Below are positions 12,536-47,327 of a DNA stretch of 64,000 nucleotides, piece after piece. The stretch is from positions 133,308-197,307 of the forward strand of contig NZ_CAKZMJ010000068.1 in NCBI RefSeq assembly GCF_937128415.1, written 5' to 3'. Each line of letters starts with the position of its first letter. Position 1 is the first letter of the stretch. A model generated the notes under the pieces. It ran no database searches. It was not told where the DNA came from and worked only from the letters and a program-made list of their open reading frames with translations. This DNA is from an uncultured Caldilinea sp. (GTDB lineage Bacteria > Chloroflexota > Anaerolineae > Caldilineales > Caldilineaceae). The position numbers and the translations under genes are program-made.

Positions 12536-15451
12536 CTACGGTTGCTTAAAAATCACGGGGAGATGATTGGCCGCTCCCACGTTCACCGACACTGCGTTCG
12601 ACGTTACAGGCGTGGCCGGATGCGTTGCCGAGTGGACCGTGGCAGTGTTCGTTAGCGTCAGACCGACCGTGATCGCAGCGCTTGCCTCGATCATGATAGC
12701 CGGCGCCGGGCCGAGAGCGAGCGAAGGTGCAGAGCAAATTACGCTCGGTGCACTAAAACCGCAACTCCAGCCAGCCCCCGAGGCGCCGATGAAATTCATG
12801 CCGGTTGGCAGAACGTCGGTCACCACGACGCTGGCCGCAGGGCTCGGGCCTGTATTGGTCACCAGGAGCGTATAGGAGATAGTCGCGCCCGACGCCACCG
12901 TGTTGGTCAAGATGGCATTGTAGCTCTGCATCTTGCCGATCTGCAGGTTGGCCACAGGGGTGACCGGTGTATTCACGACGGAAACGTTATTAACCAAACC
13001 AGGGTCAGGGTTGCCCGAAGCGACCGTGGCCGTGTTGACGACGGAGCCGGCGAGGGTCGGCGCCGTCGCCGTAAAGACAAGCGTGGTTCCTGCGCCGGCT
13101 GCAAGCGTCGGCAGCGTAAAGATTGCCTGGCCGCTGCTGCTGCTCTGCAAAGTAAATCCGCCTCCGTTTACGACGCCGCCGAAGCTTGCACCGCCTGTGA
13201 GCGTGTCGGTTAAGACAATGTTCAAGGCGGAGCCAAAGCTGCTCAGGTTCACGACCAACACGGTGTAGGTGATGGTTTCTCCGCTCATCACAGAGGCAGG
13301 GAAGACCGTCTTGTTAACAGAGAGGTCTGCTTCCTCCAACTCAAAGGCGCCGATGTCGCAAGCTGCGCCCTGTGGCCGCGCCAGGCCGCGCTGATCGCTT
13401 ATGACGCCATAACCGTTGCAGGCCCCGGCCTGATCGATCGCGGGGCTTCCTGCTCCGAGCGCGTGATTGGGTGTTGCGCCGCCGTTCAAAGCCAGCGGCT
13501 GCAACAGCGGATTGACATTGGTGAATGCAAAGCCGGTGCAGGAAGCATCGTCCGACAACGACGCGCCATTGTGAGTCACCGCAGCGCCGGTGCAATTCCC
13601 CCCTGCGTTGTTCGCCAACAAGGTCGCCAATACTTCAACAGGGGCGCCAGGCTCGACATGGAGGCCGCCTCCGGTCGAGTTTGCAATCGTCGTGTGCGTC
13701 AGGTAGCTCGTGGTGTTGAAAGAGTTGAAATTATATAGTCCGCCGCCGCTCGCAGCGCTGTTGCCACTCAACGTAGCATTGATGCTATGGAACAGATACG
13801 AGTTCAAGACGCCGCCGCCTCGCTGCCCCCCGACGTTGCCGACGATGCTAGAGTTGAGCACCGTCATTTCGCCGTTGGAGTGGATGCCGCCGCCCCATAA
13901 CAGAGCGCCGCTGCCGGAGACCGTGTTGCTCTGAATGAGGCTGCTATCCACGATCACGGTGTCCACCAAGGTCACAATGTTGATGCCGCCGCCGCTAACC
14001 AATCCACCGCCTGTGCCACTCGCCGAATTGTTCGCAACGGTGACGCTGTTCAGGAAAAGCTGGCCTCCCGGAGGCGTAATCTGAGCATAGCTCGCAATGC
14101 CGCCTCCGCTTGCATTTGTAGCCTCGATGCGGTTATGAGAGATGGTCCCCCTGACGATAGACATTTTCTGTTGTTGGTTGAGAACACCCCCACCGTAAAC
14201 GTCCGCACTGACTAACGGCGATGCCGTGTCGACAACGTTGAATTCGATGCGGACGGCGTTCAACGATGCAGCCGAACCGGCGTTTAAGACGCCGCCTCCG
14301 CCGACCGCCGAGCCATTCAAAATCGCTCGGACGTGGTTGTATGAAATCTGCCCGCCTGCAATAGTCAGCGGACCGGTTGCACCGGTCGCTTGATGAATTC
14401 CCCCTCCTCCTGCAACCCACAACGAAGGCGTCGAGGGATCATAAAAAACAACATTGCTCATCACGTCAGTGTTGTTCAGATTCAAGCCGGAGACGCTCCA
14501 GATCCCGCCGCCGCCCAGGCCTGTGCCGACCTGAAGATAGCCGGCGACATTGCTGAGCACCCGACTGTCGTCGATCTGTAATCCACGAGTCGTCAGATTG
14601 GCGACGCCGCCGCCTTCCACCTCCGAGCGGTTATAGGCGACGGTGCTGGTGAGGATCGTCCTGGGAAAAGGACCGCCGCCTAACCATAGTCCGCCTCCTT
14701 GGCCGCCGCTGAGGGGGGATGCATCGGCTGTGTTGCTGAGCACCTCACTTGTTTCAAGCACAAAATTGCCGTTGAACTTTTCACACGCGCCGCCACCGTT
14801 GCCGCCCACCACCTCGTTGTCCTGCAGCCTCACATTTCGCAGCGTGAGCGAACGATTCGAGCCAATCGCCCGTACGCCTCCGCCGCTAAAGCTGCACACC
14901 ATTCCCGTCTCGGGAGTCGCCGTAAAATCGACCGCCCCCCCTCGAATCACGAGATTTTCGAGCAAAATATCTCCTTGCGGCGAGCTGCCGCTTGGGATGT
15001 CAAAGATGCGATCCGTCCAGGCGGCGACGGTTTCCACCGTCACTTTGCCGGGCGGCCCTGAAATTGTCAGACTGTTGGGAAAGGAAGGATCGTTAATATC
15101 CAGATCGAGGAATGAATTGTCGTCATTGTTGACGCCAGAGGACAACGACAACTGCACCACGGAGATGCCCGGCCCGAAACGAATTGTATCGTTTCCATAA
15201 GCTCCAACGGCGACGCAACCGCCGAAATCACTGTCTTGGTTAGCGGATTGAATCGCCTCGCGTAAAGAGCAGGTTGCGTTTGGCGCTACATCGTATTCAT
15301 CGTTAGGCGTATTCACCGTGAGGTCCGCGGCATTCACAACACTGCTGAAGGCAATGACAGCCATCAGCGCCGCCGTGATGCTGAGACAGCCTCTAAGAAA
15401 CTTAAGCAGAAGTTTCGGTGGGCGCGACCCTTTTGCCTTTTCGTCCTCCAT
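12536..15451 (-). CDS. Secreted right-handed parallel beta-helix repeat protein with C-terminal DUF11-type repeats (cell-surface protein)
   Basis: Signal peptide ([29 protein letters not shown]) is followed by [13 protein letters not shown]...GGC, the conserved N-terminal motif of beta-helix surface proteins. Many GG..N.G repeats. C-terminal LSVNKTV...[10 protein letters not shown] and NLQIGK...[11 protein letters not shown] are DUF11-like. Start at 15451 (MEDEK, with GGGGGAG RBS). Confidence 0.8.
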
Positions 15452-15669
15452 AGACTCCCCCTTGCGATATCCTGAAAATGACGAAACCACATCTGTAAAC
15501 ATTGATGGCGCGCCATTGTCGATCATCGTAGACAGCAGGCGACAAAACGCTGTGACTTGCGACACAAGCGTCATGTGTTGTCCGCTCTTGACAGATCACC
15601 GGCTTAGGGGGGCCGAACGGGGAGATTCAAAAATTTCTCTGGAGCGCAAAAGGACGATCTCCACCGGAC

Positions 15670-28320: not shown

Positions 28321-29193
<873 letters not shown>

Positions 29194-29195
29194 GG

Positions 29196-29215
29196 TTATG
29201 GAGACTTTAATGTAG
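29196..29215. repeat. Left copy of an ~18-bp direct repeat TTAYGGAGACTTTAAYGT
   Basis: ttatggagactttaatgtag here versus ttacggagactttaacgtg at 31488-31506 (16/18 identical, 11-mer exact). This copy also forms an inverted repeat gagacttt...aaagtctc with downstream sequence. Confidence 0.4.
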
Positions 29216-29238
29216 CTGTCGTCTGCAAAGTCTCTGGC

Positions 29239-30126
29239 CTATCCCATTTTCCGATAATTCCCCTTGCCTGGAATGACATGACGCACGCCGCCAGTTGGGT
29301 CCTCTGCATCGCCGGAGTAGCGCGGTATGAGGTGGATATGCACATGTGGCACTGTCTGTCCGGCAGTTGCGCCGACATTGATCCCCACATTGAAGCCATC
29401 AGGATGAAAACGTTCGATGAGTAACTGCTGCACTCTATCCGCCATGAGCCAACAGGCAGTTTTGACATGTGTCGAGAGGTCAAAGTAATTCGCGATGTGC
29501 TTCTTGGGTATGATCAGGGCGTGACCAGGTGACACAGGATACTTGTCGAAAATAGCAAAAGTGGTGGCTGACTCAGTTATCAGTTCTCTTTCTGCTTCGG
29601 GTGCGCAAAAGGGACAGGTCGCAGCGTCGGGATGTGGCATCCGGTTATAAGGGCGGTATTCATAGATTTCGCAGTGCTCGGTGCGCAGGATGCTCAAGTA
29701 AGGGAGTTTGACATTGCACTGATAGACGCTTACGCCATGCTTCACATGCGTACGGAAGCCGTCACGCTGAATGTCACGTCGCACGGCAAAATAAGCACGT
29801 CCTGTGGGGGCCAACAGTTCAGAAACAGCCATCAGGACATGGGCTTGTTCCTCTGGAAGTAGAACATTCAGGACATAGAGGCACAGAATGGTGTCGAATC
29901 GACCCTGTGGCAAGTCAGGAGCATAATGAGGGTCGTAGCCACTGACATCGACCCCTTTTTGGCGCAAGAAGGCCACATCTTGGCCCAATCCACTGCCGAA
30001 ATCAAGCACACGTCCACGAATCAGACCTGATCGCCACAAATACCGAACAGGGAAAGAGGCTTCCGAGCGTTCCTTGACCGTAAGATGGCTGTTCGGGTTT
30101 TGAGGCGAACGAAACACCAGGTTCAT
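29239..30126 (-). CDS. Fusion protein: class I SAM-dependent methyltransferase domain plus C-terminal HIT-family (histidine triad) domain
   Basis: Motif I VLDFGSGLGQD and acidic loop VSGYD (Rossmann MTase, no DPPY/NPPY). C-terminal HVHIHLIPR is the H-x-H-x-H-xx histidine triad. Start at 30126 chosen because it gives an ATGA overlap with the upstream HNH gene. The track ORF extends to 30141. Confidence 0.7.
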   Translation of the reverse strand: MNLVFRSPQNPNSHLTVKERSEASFPVRYLWRSGLIRGRVLDFGSGLGQDVAFLRQKGVDVSGYDPHYAPDLPQGRFDTILCLYVLNVLLPEEQAHVLMAVSELLAPTGRAYFAVRRDIQRDGFRTHVKHGVSVYQCNVKLPYLSILRTEHCEIYEYRPYNRMPHPDAATCPFCAPEAERELITESATTFAIFDKYPVSPGHALIIPKKHIANYFDLSTHVKTACWLMADRVQQLLIERFHPDGFNVGINVGATAGQTVPHVHIHLIPRYSGDAEDPTGGVRHVIPGKGNYRKMG

Positions 30127-31244
30127 GAGGCATATCTCCAACCGGTCGCAAAGCCCATGTTGGCGGCAATCTGGATTTGAGGGGCGATCGACTGATAAAG
30201 GATATTGCGGAAGGTGGAAAACGCCATCGTTTGAAGGTCGGCGATAGCGCTAACTTTGAATAACAAAACGTAATCTTCAAGCAGTCTAGTCGCTTGCGGC
30301 GTACGGACGACTACCCGAACAGCTTGATATTGCAATTCGGCAAATGGATCGAAATATAATCCGGCATCAGGCAAGTTGTCACTTTTGGATGAATTGACCG
30401 TCTTAGACGTGGGCAGAAGATTCCAGAGCAAATCATGCGCCACAAAACGCCAGGGCAAGAAGTGGTCGAGTGAGAAATCGCCCTTCTGCAAAGGCTGACC
30501 GGAGTAGATGCAGGTCACATGCGCCACTTGGTCCAGAACGATGTTCCAAAATGTGCGGGCCCGTCGCAAATCGCGTTCTTGTGGCTCAAACAATTTCCCG
30601 GCAATGTTGGGGACGTTGGGATTATTTTTCTGCAGATAGTTGACCAAATGCCACAGGCAGAAGCCTGCTAAAATCGTCAGGTGTTGTTGAAGATATGAAA
30701 ACCAATCTGGGTGAATCTCGATGCCTGGTTGGGGGAGGTTCACGAAACGGTACAGGCAGGGGGTTTGTGAATCGTGGAAGGCGTTCTCAGCCAGCGTTTT
30801 GATGCGACGATTGACTTCCCAATCTCTTGCGCCCCGGAGAGTTGAGGCAAAAAAAGGACGCAGAAAACGATAGGGGACGAAATTCGCCAAAGAAAGGATC
30901 TCCCGTCCGACATCATCCAATTGCGATAGATGCGCCAGCGCAGTTGTGATGACACGATTGCGAGGGATGTCCATCGGCAAGCCAGCCTGCTCCCCCAACC
31001 GTGCCGCTATACTCCCCAGACGATCCTGCTTGCCGAACGACAGGCGAAAGTAGTTGGTAGGGTGCCAGACGCTGGCAACCATCCGTGCCAGCAGTATATC
31101 GAGAGGGATGATACGCGTCTGCGTCTCACGCACCTGCTCTAGTATCGCCAGGAACCAGTAGAACTTATAGGAGTTAGTGACTTCATCGAAACTGGCTGCC
31201 AGCGCAGAGACGGGTAAGACGGATGACGAAGGCAGCGGAATCAT
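30123..31244 (-). CDS. HNH / His-Me finger nuclease-motif protein with an uncharacterised N-terminal domain
   Basis: C-terminal region CIYSGQPL...DHFLPWRF...WNLLPTSKTVNSSKSDN matches the HNH pattern C-x-Y-x-G...DH-x-x-P...N-L...N-S-x-K (compare McrA or the DUF1524 nucleases of GmrSD/SspE). The N-terminal ~250 aa (SYKFYWFLAILE...) have no motif I can name. Confidence 0.7.
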   Translation of the reverse strand: MIPLPSSSVLPVSALAASFDEVTNSYKFYWFLAILEQVRETQTRIIPLDILLARMVASVWHPTNYFRLSFGKQDRLGSIAARLGEQAGLPMDIPRNRVITTALAHLSQLDDVGREILSLANFVPYRFLRPFFASTLRGARDWEVNRRIKTLAENAFHDSQTPCLYRFVNLPQPGIEIHPDWFSYLQQHLTILAGFCLWHLVNYLQKNNPNVPNIAGKLFEPQERDLRRARTFWNIVLDQVAHVTCIYSGQPLQKGDFSLDHFLPWRFVAHDLLWNLLPTSKTVNSSKSDNLPDAGLYFDPFAELQYQAVRVVVRTPQATRLLEDYVLLFKVSAIADLQTMAFSTFRNILYQSIAPQIQIAANMGFATGWRYAS

Positions 31245-31487
31245 GGCACGTCACCCCCAAAACACCGGATCGTCACGCAATTCCGGCATATTCTCCCGCA
31301 CCCATTGTAGACAGCGCAGATCGCTCACCAATCGACCGATATCGTCGTGAAACTGACCGGACACATTTAGACGGCTTCAATGTTTTCGCAGCGATTTAGT
31401 GGCGAGCATTGTACCCAGATAACAAAAAACACAAAAGTCAGCCGAGGGTGTATGGTCAGCCAGCAGCGGACCTGCGAGGGTTTGACG

Positions 31488-31506
31488 TTACGGAGACTTT
31501 AACGTG
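31488..31506. repeat. Right copy of the ~18-bp direct repeat (overlaps the last codons and stop of the SPFH gene)
   Basis: ttacggagactttaacgtg. On the minus strand it encodes ...TLKSP*. Confidence 0.4.
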
Positions 31507-32513
31507 CGCATCACTTCTTCCGTCAACGGCAGATCGTGCATTGCGCTCAGGTCGAGCGGAGACGGAGTCGATTTCGGTTGACCGGTCTCATCCGATGACA
31601 TTTTATGCGTCTTGTCGGGCTCTCTTTGCGTTGGGGCGTCGGGAACTCGCTGGCGAACGCCAGGCTTTCCATCTTGGATATGCATTTCGGGCTGTACGAA
31701 GCCGCTGGCAAAGATCGCGCGCAGATCTGCTGACGGGTTCTGAATCACGTTGAGCAGTTGAACGAGACCCGCCTCGGACATATTGGTGGCGTTGCGCACC
31801 CTTGCGATGAAGTCCGACATGGCGGTGCTGTTGAAGTCGCTGGCGATCAAGTCCATGTAGGCTTCGACGATCACATCGGGCAGTTGCAGTCCGTAAATCA
31901 CAAAGGGCGCGTTCGTCGCAAGCATGACGCCATGCTCCGCCAACATCGTACGCGCCCTTTCCTCAACACGCCGTTTCAGTTCGATTCCCTGTCGACCGAC
32001 GAAGGGGCTGAACAACCCTGCAACGTCTACACGGCTCGGCGTAGTTCCCTTGTCGGCGCCTCCACCCCCTTGTGGATTCTGCGGCGCAGATTTTTGCGCC
32101 GATTGCTCCGCCGAAGGGGCGAGCTCTGCAATGACCTCTTGAAAAATTTGTTTAAAAATATTGACCTGTTGTTCTCGGCGTTCATCCTCAAGGTAGTACA
32201 GCTCATCGCGGTGCATTCGCCTCGGATCGAGCCGGTAAGTGTACCGCAAATTGACGACGACCGGCAGCCCGCCGTGGGTGAACACGTTGGGCACGGCAAG
32301 CTTTCCTTCACTCTGCCGCACTTTGATCTGCGCCTTTTCCTCCTCAAATGGCATCAACAGATGAGGCCCCGGTTCGAGGATGCGTGCATAACGGTCCATC
32401 CAGTTTGTGATTGCGACATAGCCTTCGGGCACGGTTTTAAAGCTTTTCATCAACCAGACGACGACAAGCAGCACGATTATGAGCAACAGGATCAGGGTGA
32501 TAATTTCCGTCAT
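31488..32513 (-). CDS. SPFH / Band-7 (stomatin-prohibitin-flotillin-HflK/C) domain membrane protein
   Basis: N-terminal TM helix IITLILLLIIVLLVVVWL, then KTVPEGYVAITNWMDRYARILEPGPHLLMPFEE (canonical start of an SPFH domain), then a coiled-coil / low-complexity tail. Start at 32513 with AGAGGAGAT RBS. The track ORF extends to 32576. Confidence 0.75.
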   Translation of the reverse strand: MTEIITLILLLIIVLLVVVWLMKSFKTVPEGYVAITNWMDRYARILEPGPHLLMPFEEEKAQIKVRQSEGKLAVPNVFTHGGLPVVVNLRYTYRLDPRRMHRDELYYLEDERREQQVNIFKQIFQEVIAELAPSAEQSAQKSAPQNPQGGGGADKGTTPSRVDVAGLFSPFVGRQGIELKRRVEERARTMLAEHGVMLATNAPFVIYGLQLPDVIVEAYMDLIASDFNSTAMSDFIARVRNATNMSEAGLVQLLNVIQNPSADLRAIFASGFVQPEMHIQDGKPGVRQRVPDAPTQREPDKTHKMSSDETGQPKSTPSPLDLSAMHDLPLTEEVMRTLKSP

Positions 32514-32550
32514 GATTATCTCCTCTTTTGCAAATAAAGGCTGCACGCCT

Positions 32551-33555
32551 CTACCCCATCTCGATCCCCTTGACAAACTCCTGAAACACCTCGGAGAAAA
32601 GTTCTCCCCCTGAGCCGGGTCGCACCAATCCCCTTCTTTGCAGAAATTCCACCATGCTCAGGTCGAGCGAGGCGCCTCGCACCAGGCGAGACAATGCGAA
32701 CTGTTCCTCGGTGTGCAGATGCTCCCAGATATGTTTGCACGCCGCTGCAACCTCAGGATCGGTTTCGGCGAGCCTGAGGATCTTGAGAACTGAAACGTTG
32801 CTGAAGTGCGGATGCATCGCCATGAACATGGATTTGAGAAGGCCGCTATGCCCTCCGCTGAGTTTGTACAGCCGATCTTTTTCAAGGTCCGAAAGCGTCA
32901 CACGCCTCTTTGTGCATAGGGCATCGATCATGGCGTATGCATCTTCTTTCGTGTAAGGCCCAAGCGCATAGATGTCGTTGCGCACGATTTCAAACAGGCG
33001 GCTTTTGGCGAAAGGCTGTCGCCCCACGATCACCTGCGGCATGCGATGCATGACCAGCACATAGGCCAGATTGCCGGTGGTGCGATGGTCATCGCGCAGG
33101 ACGCGCAGTGCCTCGAAAAGCGTGGGCGGCTGCGCTCGGATCAGCTGCTCAAATTCGTCGAGGATGAAGACGATGCGTTGATTCCGGCGTTTACAGTGCA
33201 GATCGAGTGTATTGCGCAGCGCATCGAACTCAACGCCGCCTCGGCTGTCGAGATGGGGAAGGTCCAGGCTGCGCGCAAGTGCAGATAATAAGGAGCGATA
33301 GACGCTCTCCGGAGAATCTGTATCTTTTTCACACGGAACGCGAACGATGTGTGTCCTTTTGTCGATGAATTCGGAATAGAGAACCTGAACCTCTGGATGC
33401 TCCAGAAAAGTGAGCAGGTTGGACTTGCCCACGCCGGCAAGCCCCACCAGGCACATCGAGCGGCCTTCCTGGGTCACCCGAAACACCTGCTGCACAATTT
33501 CTTGCCGATAGGTGGGCGGATAACGCTCATGAATTAGAGTCATAGCTCTCTTCAT
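32551..33555 (-). CDS. Small P-loop NTPase (AAA / ORC-Cdc6-like ATPase domain)
   Basis: Walker A GLAGVGKSNL, Walker B IVFILDEFEQL, 334 aa. An alternative start at 33543 (MTLIHERY) has a better RBS (GAAGAGAG). Confidence 0.7.
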   Translation of the reverse strand: MKRAMTLIHERYPPTYRQEIVQQVFRVTQEGRSMCLVGLAGVGKSNLLTFLEHPEVQVLYSEFIDKRTHIVRVPCEKDTDSPESVYRSLLSALARSLDLPHLDSRGGVEFDALRNTLDLHCKRRNQRIVFILDEFEQLIRAQPPTLFEALRVLRDDHRTTGNLAYVLVMHRMPQVIVGRQPFAKSRLFEIVRNDIYALGPYTKEDAYAMIDALCTKRRVTLSDLEKDRLYKLSGGHSGLLKSMFMAMHPHFSNVSVLKILRLAETDPEVAAACKHIWEHLHTEEQFALSRLVRGASLDLSMVEFLQRRGLVRPGSGGELFSEVFQEFVKGIEMG

Positions 33556-33561
33556 CCATTT

Positions 33562-35172
33562 TCAGCGTCGTCCGGCTGGCTGGACGGCGTCGATCTGCGC
33601 CGAGAGCGCCGATGCATACAGCCATGCGCGCTCGCGTTGGATCATCTGCTCCTGCAAACCGCGCGCACGCGGTCGCATCCCGGCGACGAACAGGGCGTCA
33701 CAGAGCAATCCCCACAGATAATCGGGCAGTTGGTTCTGACGATTCGTTGTTTCAAAGGCCAGTTTGCGCAGTGCGCGCACGAACTTTAGCGCTTTATCCG
33801 CTTCCCAGCTCAACCCCGGCGGCTCATCGGCGGCGTCGAAATCTATCAGGGATTGCGTCAGCGTCAAAAAATCTTGAGAGGAAACGGTGGATGGCAGCAG
33901 CCGCGTCACCACATCGATCTCCAGCTCGCAAAAGTCAGCATATGCGGGGCCCGGGCCGGTGCGCTCAAAATCAATGAGCCAGAGATGATCGCCGTCCGTA
34001 AACAGATTGTCGGCGTGAAAATCGCCATGAACAATCCACCGCGCTCCCCTCCAGTTGGACAATTCATTCATCCTGTCATGGATTCTTTGCAAAAGCTGGG
34101 GTGGCTCAGCCGACAAGCCCACCGGATGCTCGCGTAGCCTGGCAAGCTGCTTGTTTAGCCCGAGAAGTTTGTCATACGCTTCAAAAATCGTGCAAGTGGT
34201 CGTTGTAAATCTTGGAAAAGCCTGTCTCCACAGGTCTCGCCAAAAACGAATCGGCTTCAGCAGGCGATCGATGTCTTGCTCGGCGGCGTAAAAGCTCCGA
34301 AATGCCTGCAGATGTTTCACATCGCCTTCGCCAAGAAAACTGTAGACGGAAGCACCCGCATCCCAAAAGAAGGCGGTCGTCTCAAGCCGAGTATGGAACT
34401 GCCCTAGCGCACGAGAGGCGATGTATTTCTTGTAATTCTTTGATTCATGCGCAACGCGATGGGCTTTGGCAATTTTCACCACTTTCTGGGCTTTTCCCTG
34501 ATGAATGCGTGCTCGCAGCACCAGAGAACGCCCTCGCGACGCCGGCATGGCCGATGAAGTCAGCTTCCCTTCGATCGGGTACACCCACACGCGACGCCTG
34601 TCTTCAAAAAGCTGTGCGATCAGATCATCGAGCAAGGAAGTCGGCGCCCATCGCCGGAAAAGTCGGCGCACTGTCCGCTCCCGGCTCCATAGCTTGGGCT
34701 GCCAAAACACCTGGAGACGTCTTCTTGCCGCGCAGGACTGGGTCGCTAACTTTTCCACTTCGTTTCTAAGCACATCCGGCGAGTCATCTTTATTCACCCA
34801 CCTGGCGCCGCACTCAGCGATAGCGCGATCTACAGTCGGATTGAGGTAGCCGGAATAAACGATCAGTCCGACGTTTTTCCCCAGGCTGCGCAGCCGACGC
34901 AGCAGCTCCAGCCCTGAAATATCGCTCGTGTCATGGTCGTCGTCGAGGCGCAGATCGACGATGATGACGTGCGGCCGCGTCTTTTGGGCAAGGCGCAGCG
35001 CGTCTTTGCGCAATGCATCGCCGGCGCCCTCGGCGACGACCACGCTATATCCTTCAGCCTCGAAAGCGCGGAGCAAATCGCGACGCGTCTGCCCTCGATT
35101 GTCTACAATTAAAAGGCGCGCCTGTGAGAAAGAGGTTTCGAGGGTTTTTCCATGGCTTGCAACTTCAGGCAT
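33562..35172 (-). CDS. Response-regulator receiver (REC) domain fused to a protein-kinase-like / aminoglycoside-phosphotransferase-like (APH/ChoK fold) domain
   Basis: N-terminal LLIVDN...VIIVDLRLDDD...GLEL...VGLIVYSG follows the REC pattern, including the phospho-acceptor Asp. The C-terminal half has HGDFHADNLF and LIDFER, the Brenner motif and DFG-equivalent of APH/CotS/choline-kinase-type kinases. Start at 35172 with strong AAGGAGGAT RBS. The track ORF starts at a TTG at 35208. Confidence 0.7.
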   Translation of the reverse strand: MPEVASHGKTLETSFSQARLLIVDNRGQTRRDLLRAFEAEGYSVVVAEGAGDALRKDALRLAQKTRPHVIIVDLRLDDDHDTSDISGLELLRRLRSLGKNVGLIVYSGYLNPTVDRAIAECGARWVNKDDSPDVLRNEVEKLATQSCAARRRLQVFWQPKLWSRERTVRRLFRRWAPTSLLDDLIAQLFEDRRRVWVYPIEGKLTSSAMPASRGRSLVLRARIHQGKAQKVVKIAKAHRVAHESKNYKKYIASRALGQFHTRLETTAFFWDAGASVYSFLGEGDVKHLQAFRSFYAAEQDIDRLLKPIRFWRDLWRQAFPRFTTTTCTIFEAYDKLLGLNKQLARLREHPVGLSAEPPQLLQRIHDRMNELSNWRGARWIVHGDFHADNLFTDGDHLWLIDFERTGPGPAYADFCELEIDVVTRLLPSTVSSQDFLTLTQSLIDFDAADEPPGLSWEADKALKFVRALRKLAFETTNRQNQLPDYLWGLLCDALFVAGMRPRARGLQEQMIQRERAWLYASALSAQIDAVQPAGRR

Positions 35173-35229
35173 TGGATCCTCCTTCTCAGACAGCGACCAG
35201 GGGTTCAATTCAACGCTCTTTCCAGGCGG

Positions 35230-38604
<3,375 letters not shown>

Positions 38605-38608
38605 CAAC

Positions 38609-39049
38609 TCACCCTCGCGTGAGCGCGCAGACCTTCTCGATCACCTCTTCGATATCAAAAGGTTTCTCAAAAACCGCCTGGGCCTCATAGTGCTCGTCAG
38701 GATCGGCGGTTGCGGAAAGCATCACCACTGGCGCCGTGCGCGGTGTGCCCGAACCGTTGACGCCTTCATATTCGCCGCGGCGCAGCTTGATCAAAAATTC
38801 CTTGCCGGTCTCCTGCCAGTTGACGCCGGAATAGTGCACGTTGCGCACGACGCTTCTATCATCCACCCCTGGACTCTGAGGATGGATCATTATGTCCACA
38901 ATCAACAGGTCGAAGCGCTCCTGGCCCAGCCGTCTGGGGATCTCCTGCGCAGCGGAGAGCACCACCTCATATCCCTGCTCCTCCAGCGCCTCCGCCAGCG
39001 GCTTCATGCTTTCGTAGTCGTCGTCGAACAGTAAAATTCGCTTCTGCAT
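38609..39049 (-). CDS. Stand-alone response-regulator receiver (CheY-like)
   Basis: ILLFDDD...DLLIVDIM...VVMLSA. Start at internal ATG (MQKRILLF). The track ORF starts at a GTG at 39088. My hand count of this region disagreed by 1 nt, so coordinates are uncertain by about 1. Confidence 0.75.
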   Translation of the reverse strand: MQKRILLFDDDYESMKPLAEALEEQGYEVVLSAAQEIPRRLGQERFDLLIVDIMIHPQSPGVDDRSVVRNVHYSGVNWQETGKEFLIKLRRGEYEGVNGSGTPRTAPVVMLSATADPDEHYEAQAVFEKPFDIEEVIEKVCALTRG

Positions 39050-39084
39050 CGCCTTCCTCGCAGCAAACGCCTCTCCCCTCGCTT

Positions 39085-40998
<1,914 letters not shown>

Positions 40999-42419: not shown

Positions 42420-42671
42420 TGGCCCATTTTGCGCTGCAACACCTTCAGTGCTATAGTTATTGGCTCAACGCGGTGAATGTTCTGTTCAACATGTTCCGCA
42501 CTCTATCCTTCAAAGCAGAAGGTTTCTCGTCGCCGACGACAGATTTTGGGACAGGACGCCCACTCCTGAACCAGAAATTGCGTCAAGAGGCGCCATCGAT
42601 GCATGAGCGCCGATGCACACGAAACAATTAGCAAGAACGCAAGCGAATTGTCGACGATGAGAGGAACGACT

Positions 42672-47327
<4,656 letters not shown>

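What the first reader, a model, noticed from the sequence alone, without database searches (positions are those of the whole stretch)
29196..35208. Low-GC island encoding an undescribed five-gene module (REC-APH-like kinase / P-loop NTPase / SPFH membrane protein / HNH nuclease / SAM-MTase-HIT fusion)
Between the Tro-like metal ABC operon (GC ~68%) and the histidine kinase cluster, GC drops to roughly 50-58%. Five consecutive minus-strand genes fill this region, and the combination is one I do not recognise as any named system. Several ingredients recur in anti-phage defence or stress-response modules: a membrane SPFH scaffold, a small Walker A/B NTPase, a kinase-fold effector, and a His-Me/HNH nuclease paired with a methyltransferase domain. 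The compositional shift suggests horizontal acquisition. The gene order and the tight spacing (6-nt gap, RBS-coupled starts, one ATGA overlap) indicate two co-transcribed units, REC-kinase/NTPase/SPFH and HNH/MTase-HIT. The MTase domain lacks DNA-MTase motifs (no DPPY/NPPY), so this is not a classical restriction-modification pair. The fusion to a HIT nucleotide-hydrolase/transferase domain is unusual.
Basis: partly seen in the sequence, partly recalled or inferred. Interest (0 to 1): 0.8.

Follow-up and report, generated by a model that had tools for sequence, protein, structure and literature searches.

The report
Two unrelated defence-like gene units
The "five-gene island" is two separate things in a Caldilinea genome, the tail of a six-gene sensor-kinase operon whose relatives elsewhere carry classic immune "killer" domains, and next to it a 2.3-kb inserted nuclease/methyltransferase-HIT gene pair that came from a DNA-phosphorothioation defence island; I found neither described as a system.

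Summary
The five minus-strand genes, their domains, their tight spacing and the GC dip are real. They are not one module.

**Unit A (G1-G3, 31488-35172).** This is the 3' half of a six-gene operon reaching 40998: PocR-histidine kinase, lone receiver, multi-GAF histidine kinase, receiver-TCAD9 (APH-like) kinase, AAA_22 NTPase, membrane SPFH protein.
- The order is syntenic in Caldilinea relatives that lack the other two genes.
- The core histidine kinase, receiver-TCAD9 kinase, NTPase order recurs in dozens of metagenomic loci. The family has at least 703 clusters.
- Relatives fuse TIR, SIR2, caspase/CHAT, trypsin or EAD domains to the kinase.
- This points to a two-component-gated conflict system. 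Its architecture resembles Detocs.

**Unit B (G4-G5).** This is a 2,292-bp insertion.
- It is flanked by a 23-bp direct repeat that duplicates the stop codon and last five codons of the SPFH gene.
- It carries a relic of sspC.
- In other genomes the pair sits inside SspABC(D)/PglZ/BrxL (BREX type 4-like) phosphorothioation islands.
- None of 66 HNH loci holds G1-G3 homologues. None of 89 receiver-TCAD9 loci holds G4 or G5.

All functions are inferred, not shown.

The parts
39085..40998 (-). PocR-domain histidine kinase (637 aa), first gene of the Unit A operon
   Evidence: ORF. Orthologues carry PocR + HATPase_c and hold the same position in L001, L003 and L159-L162. 86% identity to L003.
38609..39088 (-). 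Stand-alone receiver protein (public gene aa; longest ORF 159 aa), with a 4-nt overlap with the upstream kinase gene. Positional analogue of the Detocs buffer protein DtcB.
   Evidence: ORF. Orthologues are called Response_reg (faint). A family of about 150 aa (F6) recurs in 8 loci.
35230..38607 (-). Multi-GAF histidine kinase (1125 aa), directly upstream of G1
   Evidence: Translation. Orthologues carry GAF x3 + HATPase_c. A kinase ends within 700 nt upstream of the REC-TCAD9 gene in 40 of 55 loci. Fused GAF-kinase + REC-TCAD9 proteins exist: P0346, P0355, P0392.
33562..35172 (-). G1: receiver + TCAD9 (APH-like) kinase, 536 aa from M13
   Evidence: Pfam TCAD9 8e-25 (88 bits, cut-off 40), APH 2e-9, Response_reg 5e-9. 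Conserved in the family (548-aa ORF numbering): invariant D85, K140, K245, E255, H394-G-D396, N401, D413; nearly invariant D36.
32551..33555 (-). G2: P-loop NTPase (AAA_22; STAND-like), 334 aa (public aa)
   Evidence: Pfam AAA_22 5.5e-13. nSTAND1 and nSTAND6 fall below their cut-offs. Walker A is G38-x4-G43-K44-S45 and Walker B is IVFILD133-E134, read. A homologue lies directly downstream of REC-TCAD9 in 43 of 58 loci. P0273 is a fused REC-TCAD9 + AAA_22 protein.
31488..32513 (-). G3: N-terminal transmembrane helix + SPFH/Band 7 protein, 341 aa
   Evidence: Pfam Band_7 3e-9 (37.5 bits, cut-off 23.6). Hydrophobic N-terminus. Homologous to the third gene (F4) of L003-L006, L077, L090, L097 and L099: hhalign probability 97.8%, E 1e-12.
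31483..31505 (.). Direct-repeat copy 2 (TGACGTTACGGAGACTTTAACGT). On the minus strand it holds the last five codons and stop codon of G3 (TLKSP*).
   Evidence: 20 of 23 matches to copy 1; 0 matches expected in 100 shuffles.
31263..31331 (-). Relic of an sspC (BrxC-like ATPase) gene inside the 243-nt spacer upstream of G4
   Evidence: blastx gives LVSDLRCLQWVRENMPELRDDPV against L034 SspC residues 612-634, 16 of 23 identical, E 3e-9 against ten SspC sequences. SspC relics of other extents precede the HNH gene in L010, L023, L033, L036, L063, L070 and L071.
30123..31244 (-). G4: winged-helix (sulfur-binding-domain-like) N-terminal region + HNH nuclease, 373 aa
29239..30126 (-). G5: class I SAM-methyltransferase + HIT fusion, 295 aa from M6. 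Its ATG overlaps the G4 stop codon (ATGA).
   Evidence: Pfam HIT 3e-24, Methyltransf_23 2e-9. NCBIfam TIGR04096 (phosphorothioation-associated methyltransferase) matches the N-terminal part at 1e-12, below cut-off. Motif I DFGxGxG is invariant; in the histidine triad H266 and H268 are invariant and H270 nearly so.
29191..29213 (.). Direct-repeat copy 1 (TGAGGTTATGGAGACTTTAATGT). It holds the ABC-3 gene's stop codon TGA plus a second, orphan copy of TLKSP*. With copy 2 it delimits a 2,292-bp insertion.

Best explanation
The stretch holds two independent units.

**Unit A (31488-40998, minus strand)**

This is a six-gene operon: PocR-histidine kinase, lone receiver, multi-GAF histidine kinase, receiver-TCAD9 kinase (G1), AAA_22/STAND-like NTPase (G2), and transmembrane SPFH protein (G3).

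Proposed mechanism (inferred):
1. A cytoplasmic cue is read by the GAF and PocR sensor kinases.
2. Phosphotransfer to D85 of the G1 receiver releases the APH-like kinase. The lone receiver may act as a phosphate sink, as proposed for DtcB in Detocs.
3. The kinase phosphorylates the NTPase or a small molecule or nucleotide.
4. The NTPase switches or oligomerises and engages the membrane SPFH protein as the output.

In relatives the output is a TIR, SIR2, caspase/CHAT or trypsin domain fused to the kinase. This marks the family as a conflict or abortive-infection type system.

**Unit B (29214-31505)**

This is a 2.29-kb fragment of an Ssp / BREX type 4-like phosphorothioation island, inserted at the junction of the convergent SPFH and ABC-3 genes. 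It keeps only a winged-helix + HNH nuclease and its translationally coupled SAM-methyltransferase-HIT partner.

The most likely role (inferred) is a self-sufficient, restriction-like nuclease/nucleotide-enzyme pair. It would originally have served as an effector partner of phosphorothioate modification.
For: **Anatomy (shown)**
- The ORFs and domains are confirmed.
- The same six-gene order occurs in L001, L003 and L077, in partial form in L002, L004-L006 and L076, and in L159-L162.
- In L003-L006 the SPFH-type gene abuts the ABC-3 operon with no HNH or MTase-HIT gene.
- A 23-bp direct repeat brackets G4/G5 and duplicates TLKSP*.
- An sspC relic lies upstream of G4.
- G4/G5 have the most deviant GC3.

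**Unit A family**
- 43 of 58 loci have a G2 homologue directly downstream. 40 of 55 have a histidine kinase directly upstream.
- 703 clusters match at E<=1e-30.
- Of 54 long members: TIR_2 10, TIR 2, CHAT 8, caspase 6, EAD7 4, EAD1 2, EAD8 1, Trypsin_2 3, SIR2_2 1, PNP_UDP_1 1.
- Fusion proteins link the components: GAF-kinase + REC-TCAD9, and REC-TCAD9 + AAA_22/nSTAND.
- The receiver and kinase catalytic residues are conserved.
- The SPFH third gene recurs in 10 fetched loci besides this one, including L099, where G1 is only 29% identical.
- The NTPase and SPFH genes show allelic replacement. They are 31% and 22% identical to L003 but 58% and 50% to L001. The kinases are 76-86% identical to L003.
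- Detocs is an experimental precedent for a defensive two-component system with a lone receiver (bioRxiv 10.1101/2023.01.24.525353).

**Unit B**
- About 38 of 66 HNH loci have the MTase-HIT gene immediately downstream.
- 21 of 65 have SspB/C/D, SspF/G, PglZ or BrxL next to it.
- The closest G5 relative (89% identity) lies in an island reading SspB-SspC-HNH-MTaseHIT-...-PglZ-BrxL-SspA.
- Plasmid examples exist in Hymenobacter (SspABCD + HNH) and in Synechocystis pSYSM.
Against: - No function was tested.
- G1, G2 and G3 have no significant PADLOC hits.
- The window's flanks are housekeeping genes. The operon is syntenic and apparently vertically inherited in Caldilinea. This also fits ordinary signalling.
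- This particular locus has no canonical killer domain. Treating SPFH as an effector is conjecture.
- The kinase substrate is unknown.
- For Unit B, no Ssp, Dnd or BREX gene lies in the 64-kb window.
- The high sequence conservation of G4/G5 (57-89% identity across Chloroflexota) is more typical of enzymes than of fast-evolving restriction sensors.
- In several Chloroflexota islands no PAPS-reductase (SspD) was found. The pair could therefore belong to the modification side rather than the restriction side.
Confidence: 0.6

Rival explanations
1. All five genes form one horizontally acquired defence module, in which the kinase/NTPase/SPFH part senses and the HNH/MTase-HIT part executes.
For: The genes are adjacent, on the same strand and in a low-GC stretch. 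The arrangement is fixed in this species: the identical G4 protein occurs on 16 contigs, and all four places shown have the same arrangement.
Against: - None of 66 HNH loci has G1-G3 homologues.
- None of 89 REC-TCAD9 loci has G4 or G5.
- Syntenic relatives lack G4/G5.
- A 23-bp target duplication and an sspC relic mark G4/G5 as a separate insertion.
- A 243-nt spacer separates the two units.
Confidence: 0.03
2. Unit A is an ordinary signal-transduction operon, not an immune or conflict system. A two-component pathway with an enzymatic (kinase) output and an NTPase regulator would control membrane organisation or stress physiology through an SPFH scaffold.
For: - The operon is syntenic with housekeeping neighbours across Caldilinea relatives.
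- There are no PADLOC hits.
- Some G2 homologues carry an OmpR-type DNA-binding domain, Trans_reg_C, which suggests transcriptional output.
- SPFH proteins are usually scaffolds.
- PocR and GAF are common metabolic sensor domains.
Against: - The kinase family repeatedly fuses to TIR, SIR2, CHAT/caspase, trypsin, PNP and EAD domains. This repertoire is characteristic of conflict systems.
- TCAD9 itself was defined from conflict systems (Pfam name; PMC7159879).
- The NTPase/SPFH pair shows cassette-like replacement between otherwise close loci.
Confidence: 0.3
3. Unit B is not a restriction-like effector. Either it is part of a variant DNA-backbone modification pathway, with HIT nucleotidyl transfer plus methylation substituting for the PAPS-reductase SspD. 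In that case it is an inactive leftover here. Or it is a purely selfish, R-M-like addiction or homing cassette.
For: - Islands reading SspB-SspC-HNH-MTaseHIT-PglZ-BrxL-SspA show no detectable PAPS-reductase.
- Both proteins show enzyme-like conservation.
- The pair survives intact while the neighbouring sspC decays in many lineages.
- The distribution is patchy across phyla and includes plasmids.
Against: - Bacteroidota loci and the Hymenobacter plasmid have SspD together with the HNH gene.
- An orphan piece of a modification pathway would be expected to decay. Yet it is intact and identical across many samples of this species.
- No recombinase or transposase lies in the cassette, and there are no hits in viral contigs.
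Confidence: 0.25

Closest known systems
Detocs (defensive two-component system DtcA/DtcB/DtcC; Rousset et al., bioRxiv 10.1101/2023.01.24.525353)
   Same: An operon of sensor histidine kinase, stand-alone receiver, and response regulator whose output is an enzyme rather than a DNA-binding domain. The effector on the response regulator is modular. One REC-TCAD9 relative even carries a PNP_UDP_1 domain.
   Different: - The response-regulator output here is an APH-like (TCAD9) kinase, not the PNP ATP nucleosidase.
- There are two kinases, with GAF and PocR sensors.
- There is an obligatory extra AAA_22/STAND-like NTPase and, in this clade, a membrane SPFH protein.
- G1 gave no Detocs hit in PADLOC. 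Homology of the kinases to DtcA was not tested.
vWA-MoxR ternary conflict systems with receiver and small-molecule-kinase (TCAD9) effector domains (Kaur et al. 2020 PMC7159879; 2021 PMC8195603)
   Same: Same kinase family (Pfam TCAD9) and the same companion repertoire (EAD1/7/8, TIR, caspase, trypsin). Enrichment in filamentous phyla such as Chloroflexota is reported in those papers.
   Different: - No vWA, MoxR, VMAP or iSTAND genes occur in the loci whose precomputed gene annotations were listed (L001-L009, L159-L162) or among the recurrent neighbour families scanned.
- Those papers describe the receivers as acting independently of histidine kinases.
- Here the receiver-kinase usually follows a histidine kinase (40 of 55 loci) or is fused to one.
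SspABCD-SspE / SspFGH and BREX type 4 phosphorothioation defence islands (PMC12839542, PMC12914056)
   Same: G4/G5 homologues sit between or beside SspB (DUF4007), SspC/BrxC, SspD, SspA, PglZ, BrxL and SspF/G in 21 of 65 loci. The window keeps an sspC relic.
   Different: - The window has none of the defining modification genes.
- G4 is not SspE (no DUF262/DUF1524, no PADLOC SspE hit).
- The HNH + MTase-HIT pair is not mentioned in the papers read.
ScoMcrA/SprMcrA-type phosphorothioate-dependent Type IV HNH endonucleases (PMC6224610)
   Different: - No SRA domain.
- No detectable sequence similarity to the sulfur-binding domain.
- The sulfur-pocket residues were not verified.
- The HNH is of the Cas9-like HNH_4 type, without the Cys4 zinc finger described for ScoMcrA.
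TIGR04096 'DNA phosphorothioation-associated putative methyltransferase'
   Same: The N-terminal ~80 residues of G5, up to and including its SAM-binding motif I (residues 19-94 of the 300-aa ORF), match the N-terminus of this family at 1e-12. A member lies in the Synechocystis pSYSM locus that also holds a G4-like HNH.
   Different: The score is 47.5 bits against a cut-off of 150, and only profile positions 5-82 of 478 match. G5 instead carries a C-terminal HIT domain.

Membership tests
Detocs | Operon with a sensor histidine kinase, a stand-alone receiver, and a receiver-effector protein | tested here: met
   The window and its orthologous loci read PocR-kinase, REC (146-159 aa), GAF-kinase, REC-TCAD9.
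Detocs | Sequence homology to the DtcA/DtcB/DtcC profiles | tested here: inconclusive
   G1 gave no Dtc hit in PADLOC v2.0.0. I did not confirm that this release holds Detocs models.
Detocs | Phospho-accepting aspartate required and conserved in the effector's receiver | tested here: met
   D85 and K140 are invariant and D36 nearly invariant in 17 family members. The requirement itself was not tested.
vWA-MoxR ternary conflict systems | Adjacent MoxR AAA+ ATPase and vWA genes plus VMAP/iSTAND | tested here: not met
   No such Pfam families appear among the precomputed gene annotations of L001-L009 and L159-L162, or among the recurrent neighbour families scanned. The neighbours of L076-L155 were not individually annotated.
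vWA-MoxR ternary conflict systems | TCAD9 kinase-like domain | tested here: met
   PF19974 scores 88.3 bits against a cut-off of 40.
STAND NTPases (nSTAND1/nSTAND6) | Pfam score above the gathering threshold | tested here: inconclusive
   nSTAND1 scores 22.4 against 27.1 and nSTAND6 scores 16.8 against 27.7. AAA_22 passes at 49.8 against 27. Walker A and B motifs are present.
SPFH / Band 7 | SPFH domain with an N-terminal membrane anchor | tested here: met
   Band_7 scores 37.5 bits against 23.6. The N-terminal 19-residue windows have hydropathy up to 3.1.
Ssp (SspABCD-SspE) / BREX type 4 | SspB, SspC, SspD (or BrxP), PglZ and BrxL genes in the locus | tested here: not met
   tblastn of these proteins against the 64-kb window finds nothing at 1e-6. 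Only a 23-residue sspC relic remains.
Ssp (SspABCD-SspE) / BREX type 4 | Homologues embedded in such islands elsewhere | tested here: met
   21 of 65 HNH loci, L156-L158, and plasmids.
SBD-HNH Type IV phosphorothioate-dependent endonucleases (ScoMcrA) | Catalytically competent HNH motif | tested here: met
   D260-H261, N275 and N284 are invariant. From my own knowledge, the spacing matches Cas9 H840/N854/N863.
SBD-HNH Type IV phosphorothioate-dependent endonucleases (ScoMcrA) | Sulfur-binding domain with the H116/R117 and Y164/P165 pocket | tested here: inconclusive
SBD-HNH Type IV phosphorothioate-dependent endonucleases (ScoMcrA) | SRA domain between the sulfur-binding domain and the HNH | tested here: not met
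   No SRA Pfam hit.
Classical restriction-modification pair | DNA methyltransferase family or motifs (N6/N4 DPPY, C5 PCQ) | tested here: not met
   Only small-molecule-type class I families match: Methyltransf_23, _12, _25 and _11. Foldseek neighbours are DhpI, Trm9 and cg3271-type methyltransferases.
HIT superfamily | Histidine triad HxHxHxx | tested here: met
   PF01230 at 3e-24. In HVHIHLIPR, H266 and H268 are invariant and H270 nearly so. The closest solved relatives are Fhit and Ap4A phosphorylase.
TIGR04096 (dnd_rel_methyl) | Full-length match above the NCBIfam cut-off | tested here: not met
   47.5 bits against 150, and only profile positions 5-82 of 478 match.

The most novel reading that the evidence does not exclude
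The histidine kinase, receiver-TCAD9 kinase and AAA_22 NTPase cassette may define a widespread immune signalling system that I did not find described as such. It has at least 703 protein clusters.

In this reading:
- A two-component phosphorelay licenses a small-molecule or protein kinase.
- The kinase, through a dedicated NTPase, triggers interchangeable effectors: TIR, SIR2, caspase/CHAT, trypsin or, as here, a membrane SPFH protein.
- This would be a kinase-relay layer not known in Detocs or in STAND/Avs systems.

A second, less likely novelty concerns the neighbouring HNH + methyltransferase-HIT pair. It may carry out an unknown DNA-end or backbone chemistry in phosphorothioation/BREX type 4-like islands that lack a PAPS-reductase.
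Probability: 0.4. Interest if true: 0.8.

Novelty: new variant of a known kind. Interest (0 to 1): 0.62.

Why it matters
**Unit A.** If it is defensive, it extends the one validated two-component immune system (Detocs) to a much more elaborate design: two sensors, a buffer receiver, a kinase relay, an NTPase switch and swappable effectors. It would give the first functional context for the TCAD9 kinase family. It would also suggest an SPFH membrane protein as an immune output.

**Unit B.** It points to an abundant gene pair that the phosphorothioation and BREX papers I read do not mention. G4 has 1,523 homologues and G5 has 2,860. The pair rides with Ssp / BREX type 4 islands and outlives them. 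It could be a new phosphorothioate-linked restriction partner or a new nucleic-acid chemistry.

**For genome scanning.** Adjacency plus a shared GC dip produced a false "module". Synteny and co-occurrence resolved it.

Tried and rejected
- **Literature on TCAD9.** The term appears only in figure legends or method lists. One search was wasted on a bad term. The supplement of PMC7159879 has no "TCAD".
- **Exact look-up of G2.** Not on record, because public gene calls use a later start.
- **PADLOC and PHROGs on the five proteins.** Only weak or generic hits.
- **Viral contigs for G4.** No relatives.
- **Plasmids for G1.** No match.
- **PDB sequence search with the G4 profile.** Only HNH and Cas9 hits, nothing for the N-terminal region.
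- **Promoter and terminator scan.** Counts were near the shuffle expectation and uninformative for a Chloroflexota genome.
- **hhalign of the recurrent upstream families F3, F15 and F16 against G3.** No relationship. Only F4 is homologous.
- **A mobile element with its own recombinase for Unit B.** Rejected. The 2.29 kb holds only the two genes and the sspC relic.
- **G1-G3 as a recent island.** Rejected because of synteny in relatives. The NTPase/SPFH pair does, however, look swapped between lineages.
- **tRNA and Rfam searches.** Not run. Nothing suggested an RNA element.

Full report
**1. Observation**

The five minus-strand ORFs exist as described.

| Gene | Pfam result |
|---|---|
| G1 | Response_reg + TCAD9 (PF19974, 88 bits against a cut-off of 40) + APH |
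| G2 | AAA_22 (nSTAND1 and nSTAND6 below their cut-offs) |
| G3 | Band_7/SPFH |
| G4 | HNH_4 at residues 245-292, with about 240 unassigned N-terminal residues |
| G5 | Methyltransf_23 + HIT |

GC drops from about 0.63-0.64 to 0.49-0.58 across most of the region, touching 0.60 near 34.5-35.0 kb. The flank is 0.61-0.65, not 0.68.

The dip has two tiers:
- G5 and G4 have GC3 of 0.55 and 0.59, against 0.77-0.83 in the ABC operon.
- G1-G3 have GC3 of 0.63-0.65, against 0.73-0.76 in the upstream kinase genes.

Alignments and public gene calls place the real starts at G1 M13 (35172), G3 MTEII (32513) and G5 M6 (30126). The last gives an ATGA overlap with the G4 stop codon.

The source is a Caldilinea species (Chloroflexota). 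P0001 is 99% identical to G1 and P0020 is 100% identical to G4, and both are named Caldilinea sp..

**2. The five genes are two units**

Neighbourhoods of G1 homologues at 55-63% identity show one conserved order: PocR-histidine kinase, lone receiver, multi-GAF histidine kinase, REC-TCAD9, NTPase, SPFH-type protein.

In L003-L006 the last gene runs straight into the same convergent ABC-3/ZnuA/Fe-repressor operon as in the window. There is no HNH or MTase-HIT gene. The window itself has the three upstream genes at 35230-40998.

Co-occurrence is absent in both directions:
- A species-level genome scan with a G4 alignment gave 66 loci. About 38 have a G5-like gene immediately downstream of the HNH gene, and none has a G1, G2 or G3 homologue.
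- None of 89 REC-TCAD9 loci has G4 or G5.

The five-gene arrangement is seen only in this species. The identical G4 protein occurs on 16 contigs, and all four places shown have the same arrangement.

**3. The insertion**

A 23-nt direct repeat (20 of 23 identical) lies at 29191-29213 and 31483-31505. There are no other copies in the window, and none are expected by chance.

Read on the minus strand, both copies encode T-L-K-S-P-stop, which is the end of the SPFH gene. Read on the plus strand, both begin with TGA, and in copy 1 that TGA is the stop codon of the ABC-3 gene.

The pre-insertion state was therefore two convergent genes whose stop codons lay 2 nt apart. A 2,292-bp segment was inserted there, with duplication of that junction. 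Two of the three mismatches between the copies fall at synonymous third-codon positions and the third lies in the 2-nt spacer between the stop codons.

Inside the insert, the 243-nt spacer upstream of G4 encodes LVSDLRCLQWVRENMPELRDDPV (31263-31331). This matches SspC residues 612-634 of L034, 16 of 23 identical, blastx E 3e-9 against ten SspC sequences.

SspC remnants of different extents precede the HNH gene in L010, L023, L033, L036, L063, L070 and L071. L034 has a full-length SspC there. The ancestral context of the pair is therefore directly downstream of sspC, and sspC has decayed independently many times while the pair stayed intact.

**4. What Unit B is**

G4 has 1,523 homologues and G5 has 2,860. 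The 120 best-listed relatives of each, largely from Chloroflexota, are 57-89% identical to the query over essentially full length. Many members of the two families share contigs.

The HNH family is also found in Bacteroidota, Deltaproteobacteria, spirochaetes, Calditrichota, Heliorestis and cyanobacterial plasmids.

Clustering the neighbours gave recurrent families. PADLOC identifies them as follows:

| Neighbour | PADLOC E-value |
|---|---|
| SspB/DUF4007 | 3e-86 |
| SspC/BrxC | 2e-215 |
| SspD | 1e-84 |
| SspF, SspG | 4e-94, 1e-46 |
| PglZ | 3e-93 |
| BrxL | 2e-214 |

21 of 65 loci have at least one of these beside the HNH gene.

Three informative examples:
- The closest G5 relative (89% identity, on a 2.46-Mb contig) lies in an island reading SspB, SspC, HNH, MTase-HIT, SspB-like, IS element, 572-aa protein, PglZ (split by an IS element), BrxL, SspA/DndA.
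- A Hymenobacter plasmid has HNH next to SspA, DUF4007, a 1158-aa SspC-like protein and a PAPS-reductase.
- Synechocystis PCC 6803 pSYSM has DUF4007, an SspC fragment, an HNH protein, a cysteine desulfurase, and a gene annotated [quoted passage not shown]. That is the same NCBIfam family (TIGR04096) that matches the N-terminal part of G5 at 1e-12.

G4 structure and motifs:
- The AF2 model has pLDDT 87.9.
- PMC10853773 notes that the sulfur-binding domain is itself a winged HTH. This is therefore a lead, not proof.
- The HNH residues D260-H261, N275 and N284 are invariant.

G5 structure and motifs:
- Motif I and the histidine triad are conserved: DFGxGxG, H266 and H268 are invariant and H270 nearly so.
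- Its HIT domain resembles Fhit and Ap4A phosphorylase.
- Its methyltransferase resembles small-molecule and tRNA class I enzymes, not DNA methyltransferases.

The phosphorothioation and BREX papers I read do not mention an HNH + MTase-HIT pair.

The window has no Ssp or BREX gene. Here the pair is an orphan remnant that is nevertheless intact.

**5. What Unit A is**

A metagenome scan with a G1 alignment returned 80 further loci at 25-59% identity. Adjacency counts come:
- A full-length G2 homologue (22-30% identity) lies directly downstream in 43 of 58 loci that have enough sequence.
- A histidine kinase ends within 700 nt upstream in 40 of 55.

The third gene varies:
- A transmembrane SPFH protein in 10 fetched loci besides the window (L001-L006, L077, L090, L097, L099). 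G3-type and F4 are homologous, with hhalign probability 97.8%.
- An inositol-monophosphatase-family protein in 6 loci.
- A NUDIX protein in 3 loci.
- Some NTPases carry a C-terminal Trans_reg_C domain.

The profile finds 703 representative clusters at E<=1e-30.

Among 54 longer members the extra domains are as follows:

| Extra domain | Members |
|---|---|
| TIR_2 | 10 |
| TIR | 2 |
| CHAT | 8 |
| Peptidase_C14 | 6 |
| EAD7 | 4 |
| EAD1 | 2 |
| EAD8 | 1 |
| Trypsin_2 | 3 |
| SIR2_2 | 1 |
| PNP_UDP_1 | 1 |
| Metallophos | 1 |
| Guanylate_cyc | 1 |

Fusion proteins tie the components together. GAF-kinase + REC-TCAD9 occurs in P0346, P0355 and P0392. REC-TCAD9 + AAA_22/nSTAND occurs in P0273.

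The G1 receiver residues D85 and K140 and the kinase residues K245, E255, H394-G-D396, N401 and D413 are invariant, and D36 is nearly invariant. G2 has Walker A and B motifs.

Identity to two relatives is incongruent along the operon:

| Gene | Identity to L003 | Identity to L001 |
|---|---|---|
| PocR-kinase | 86% | 68% |
| Lone receiver | 70% | 58% |
| GAF-kinase | 76% | 63% |
| G1 | 60% | 54% |
| G2 | 31% | 58% |
| G3 | 22% | 50% |

The NTPase/SPFH pair has therefore been exchanged between lineages, or exists as deeply divergent alleles. This, together with their lower GC, explains the milder part of the GC dip.

**6. Mechanism: shown and inferred**

Shown:
- Composition and gene order.
- Conservation of catalytic residues.
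- Fusion proteins linking the components.
- The effector repertoire in relatives.

Inferred:
- A GAF or PocR kinase phosphorylates D85 of G1.
- The freed APH-like kinase phosphorylates G2 or a small molecule or nucleotide. The NUDIX and IMPase partners in relatives would fit a nucleotide.
- G2 switches and acts on the membrane SPFH protein.
- The lone receiver buffers leaky signalling, as proposed for DtcB.

For Unit B I favour a restriction-like pair: a winged-helix-guided HNH nuclease with a coupled nucleotide enzyme. It would have originated as an effector partner of phosphorothioate modification. A role in modification chemistry, or pure selfishness, remains open.

**7. Comparison with the known**

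Unit A works like Detocs in architecture. It shares its kinase domain and effector vocabulary with the vWA-MoxR ternary systems of Kaur et al. It has no vWA or MoxR genes. Unlike the receivers discussed there, it is wired to histidine kinases.

Unit B is associated with Ssp / BREX type 4 islands. It is not SspE, and it is not a proven member of the sulfur-binding-domain family.

I found neither unit described as a system. Both are variants of known kinds.

**8. Verdict**

The flanks are housekeeping genes, so this is not a defence island. The anatomy is secure. The functions are inferred.

Noticed in passing
window 31488-33555 compared with L001 and L003: The NTPase and SPFH genes are phylogenetically incongruent with the rest of the operon. 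They are 31% and 22% identical to L003, whose kinases are 76-86% identical. They are 58% and 50% identical to L001. This suggests cassette exchange or deeply divergent alleles at one locus.
   Followed up: partly
L163 (Synechocystis PCC 6803 plasmid pSYSM, 17880-30168): A model-organism plasmid carries DUF4007, an SspC-like fragment interrupted by a LAGLIDADG endonuclease gene, a G4-like HNH protein, an MNT/HEPN pair, RelE/HigA, a cysteine desulfurase, and a TIGR04096 methyltransferase. This is a tractable place to test the HNH family.
   Followed up: no
L156-L158 (12209-13105, 16606-17634): Two IS (DDE transposase) insertions lie in the Ssp/BREX type 4-like island that holds the closest G5 relative. 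One splits PglZ into 597-aa and 126-aa pieces. In L157 and L158 SspC is also split. No PAPS-reductase was detected in the island.
   Followed up: partly
L009, L079, L082, L088, L092, L110; L007, L101, L131: In distant REC-TCAD9 loci the NTPase carries an OmpR-type Trans_reg_C domain. It is followed by an inositol-monophosphatase-family gene (6 loci) or accompanied by a NUDIX gene (3 loci). This hints at a phosphorylated small-molecule or nucleotide signal.
   Followed up: partly
L094, L107, L112, L116, L119, L122, L123, L125, L128, L130, L133: A conserved ~359-aa protein with no Pfam match (F3) lies upstream of a ~730-aa and a 534-1,281-aa histidine kinase in 11 REC-TCAD9 loci. In three of them (L112, L116, L122) a weak Band_7-like protein (F16) precedes it. 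F3 is unrelated to G3 by hhalign.
   Followed up: partly
window 12536-15574 (-): A 1012-aa protein with DUF11 repeats lies in a second lower-GC patch (0.576 over 14-16 kb).
   Followed up: no
window 35152-36792 (+), 42510-45779 (-), 31758-32537 (+): Long ORFs run antisense to real genes (the GAF kinase, glutamate synthase, G3). The one scanned (42510-45779) has no Pfam match and the other two were not scanned. These are the usual spurious ORFs of GC-rich DNA.
   Followed up: partly
L026, L027 (9148-9537 in L026): Where the MTase-HIT gene is missing, some HNH genes are followed by a conserved 129-aa protein (F12) and preceded by a NERD-domain protein. These may be alternative partners of the HNH.
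   Followed up: no
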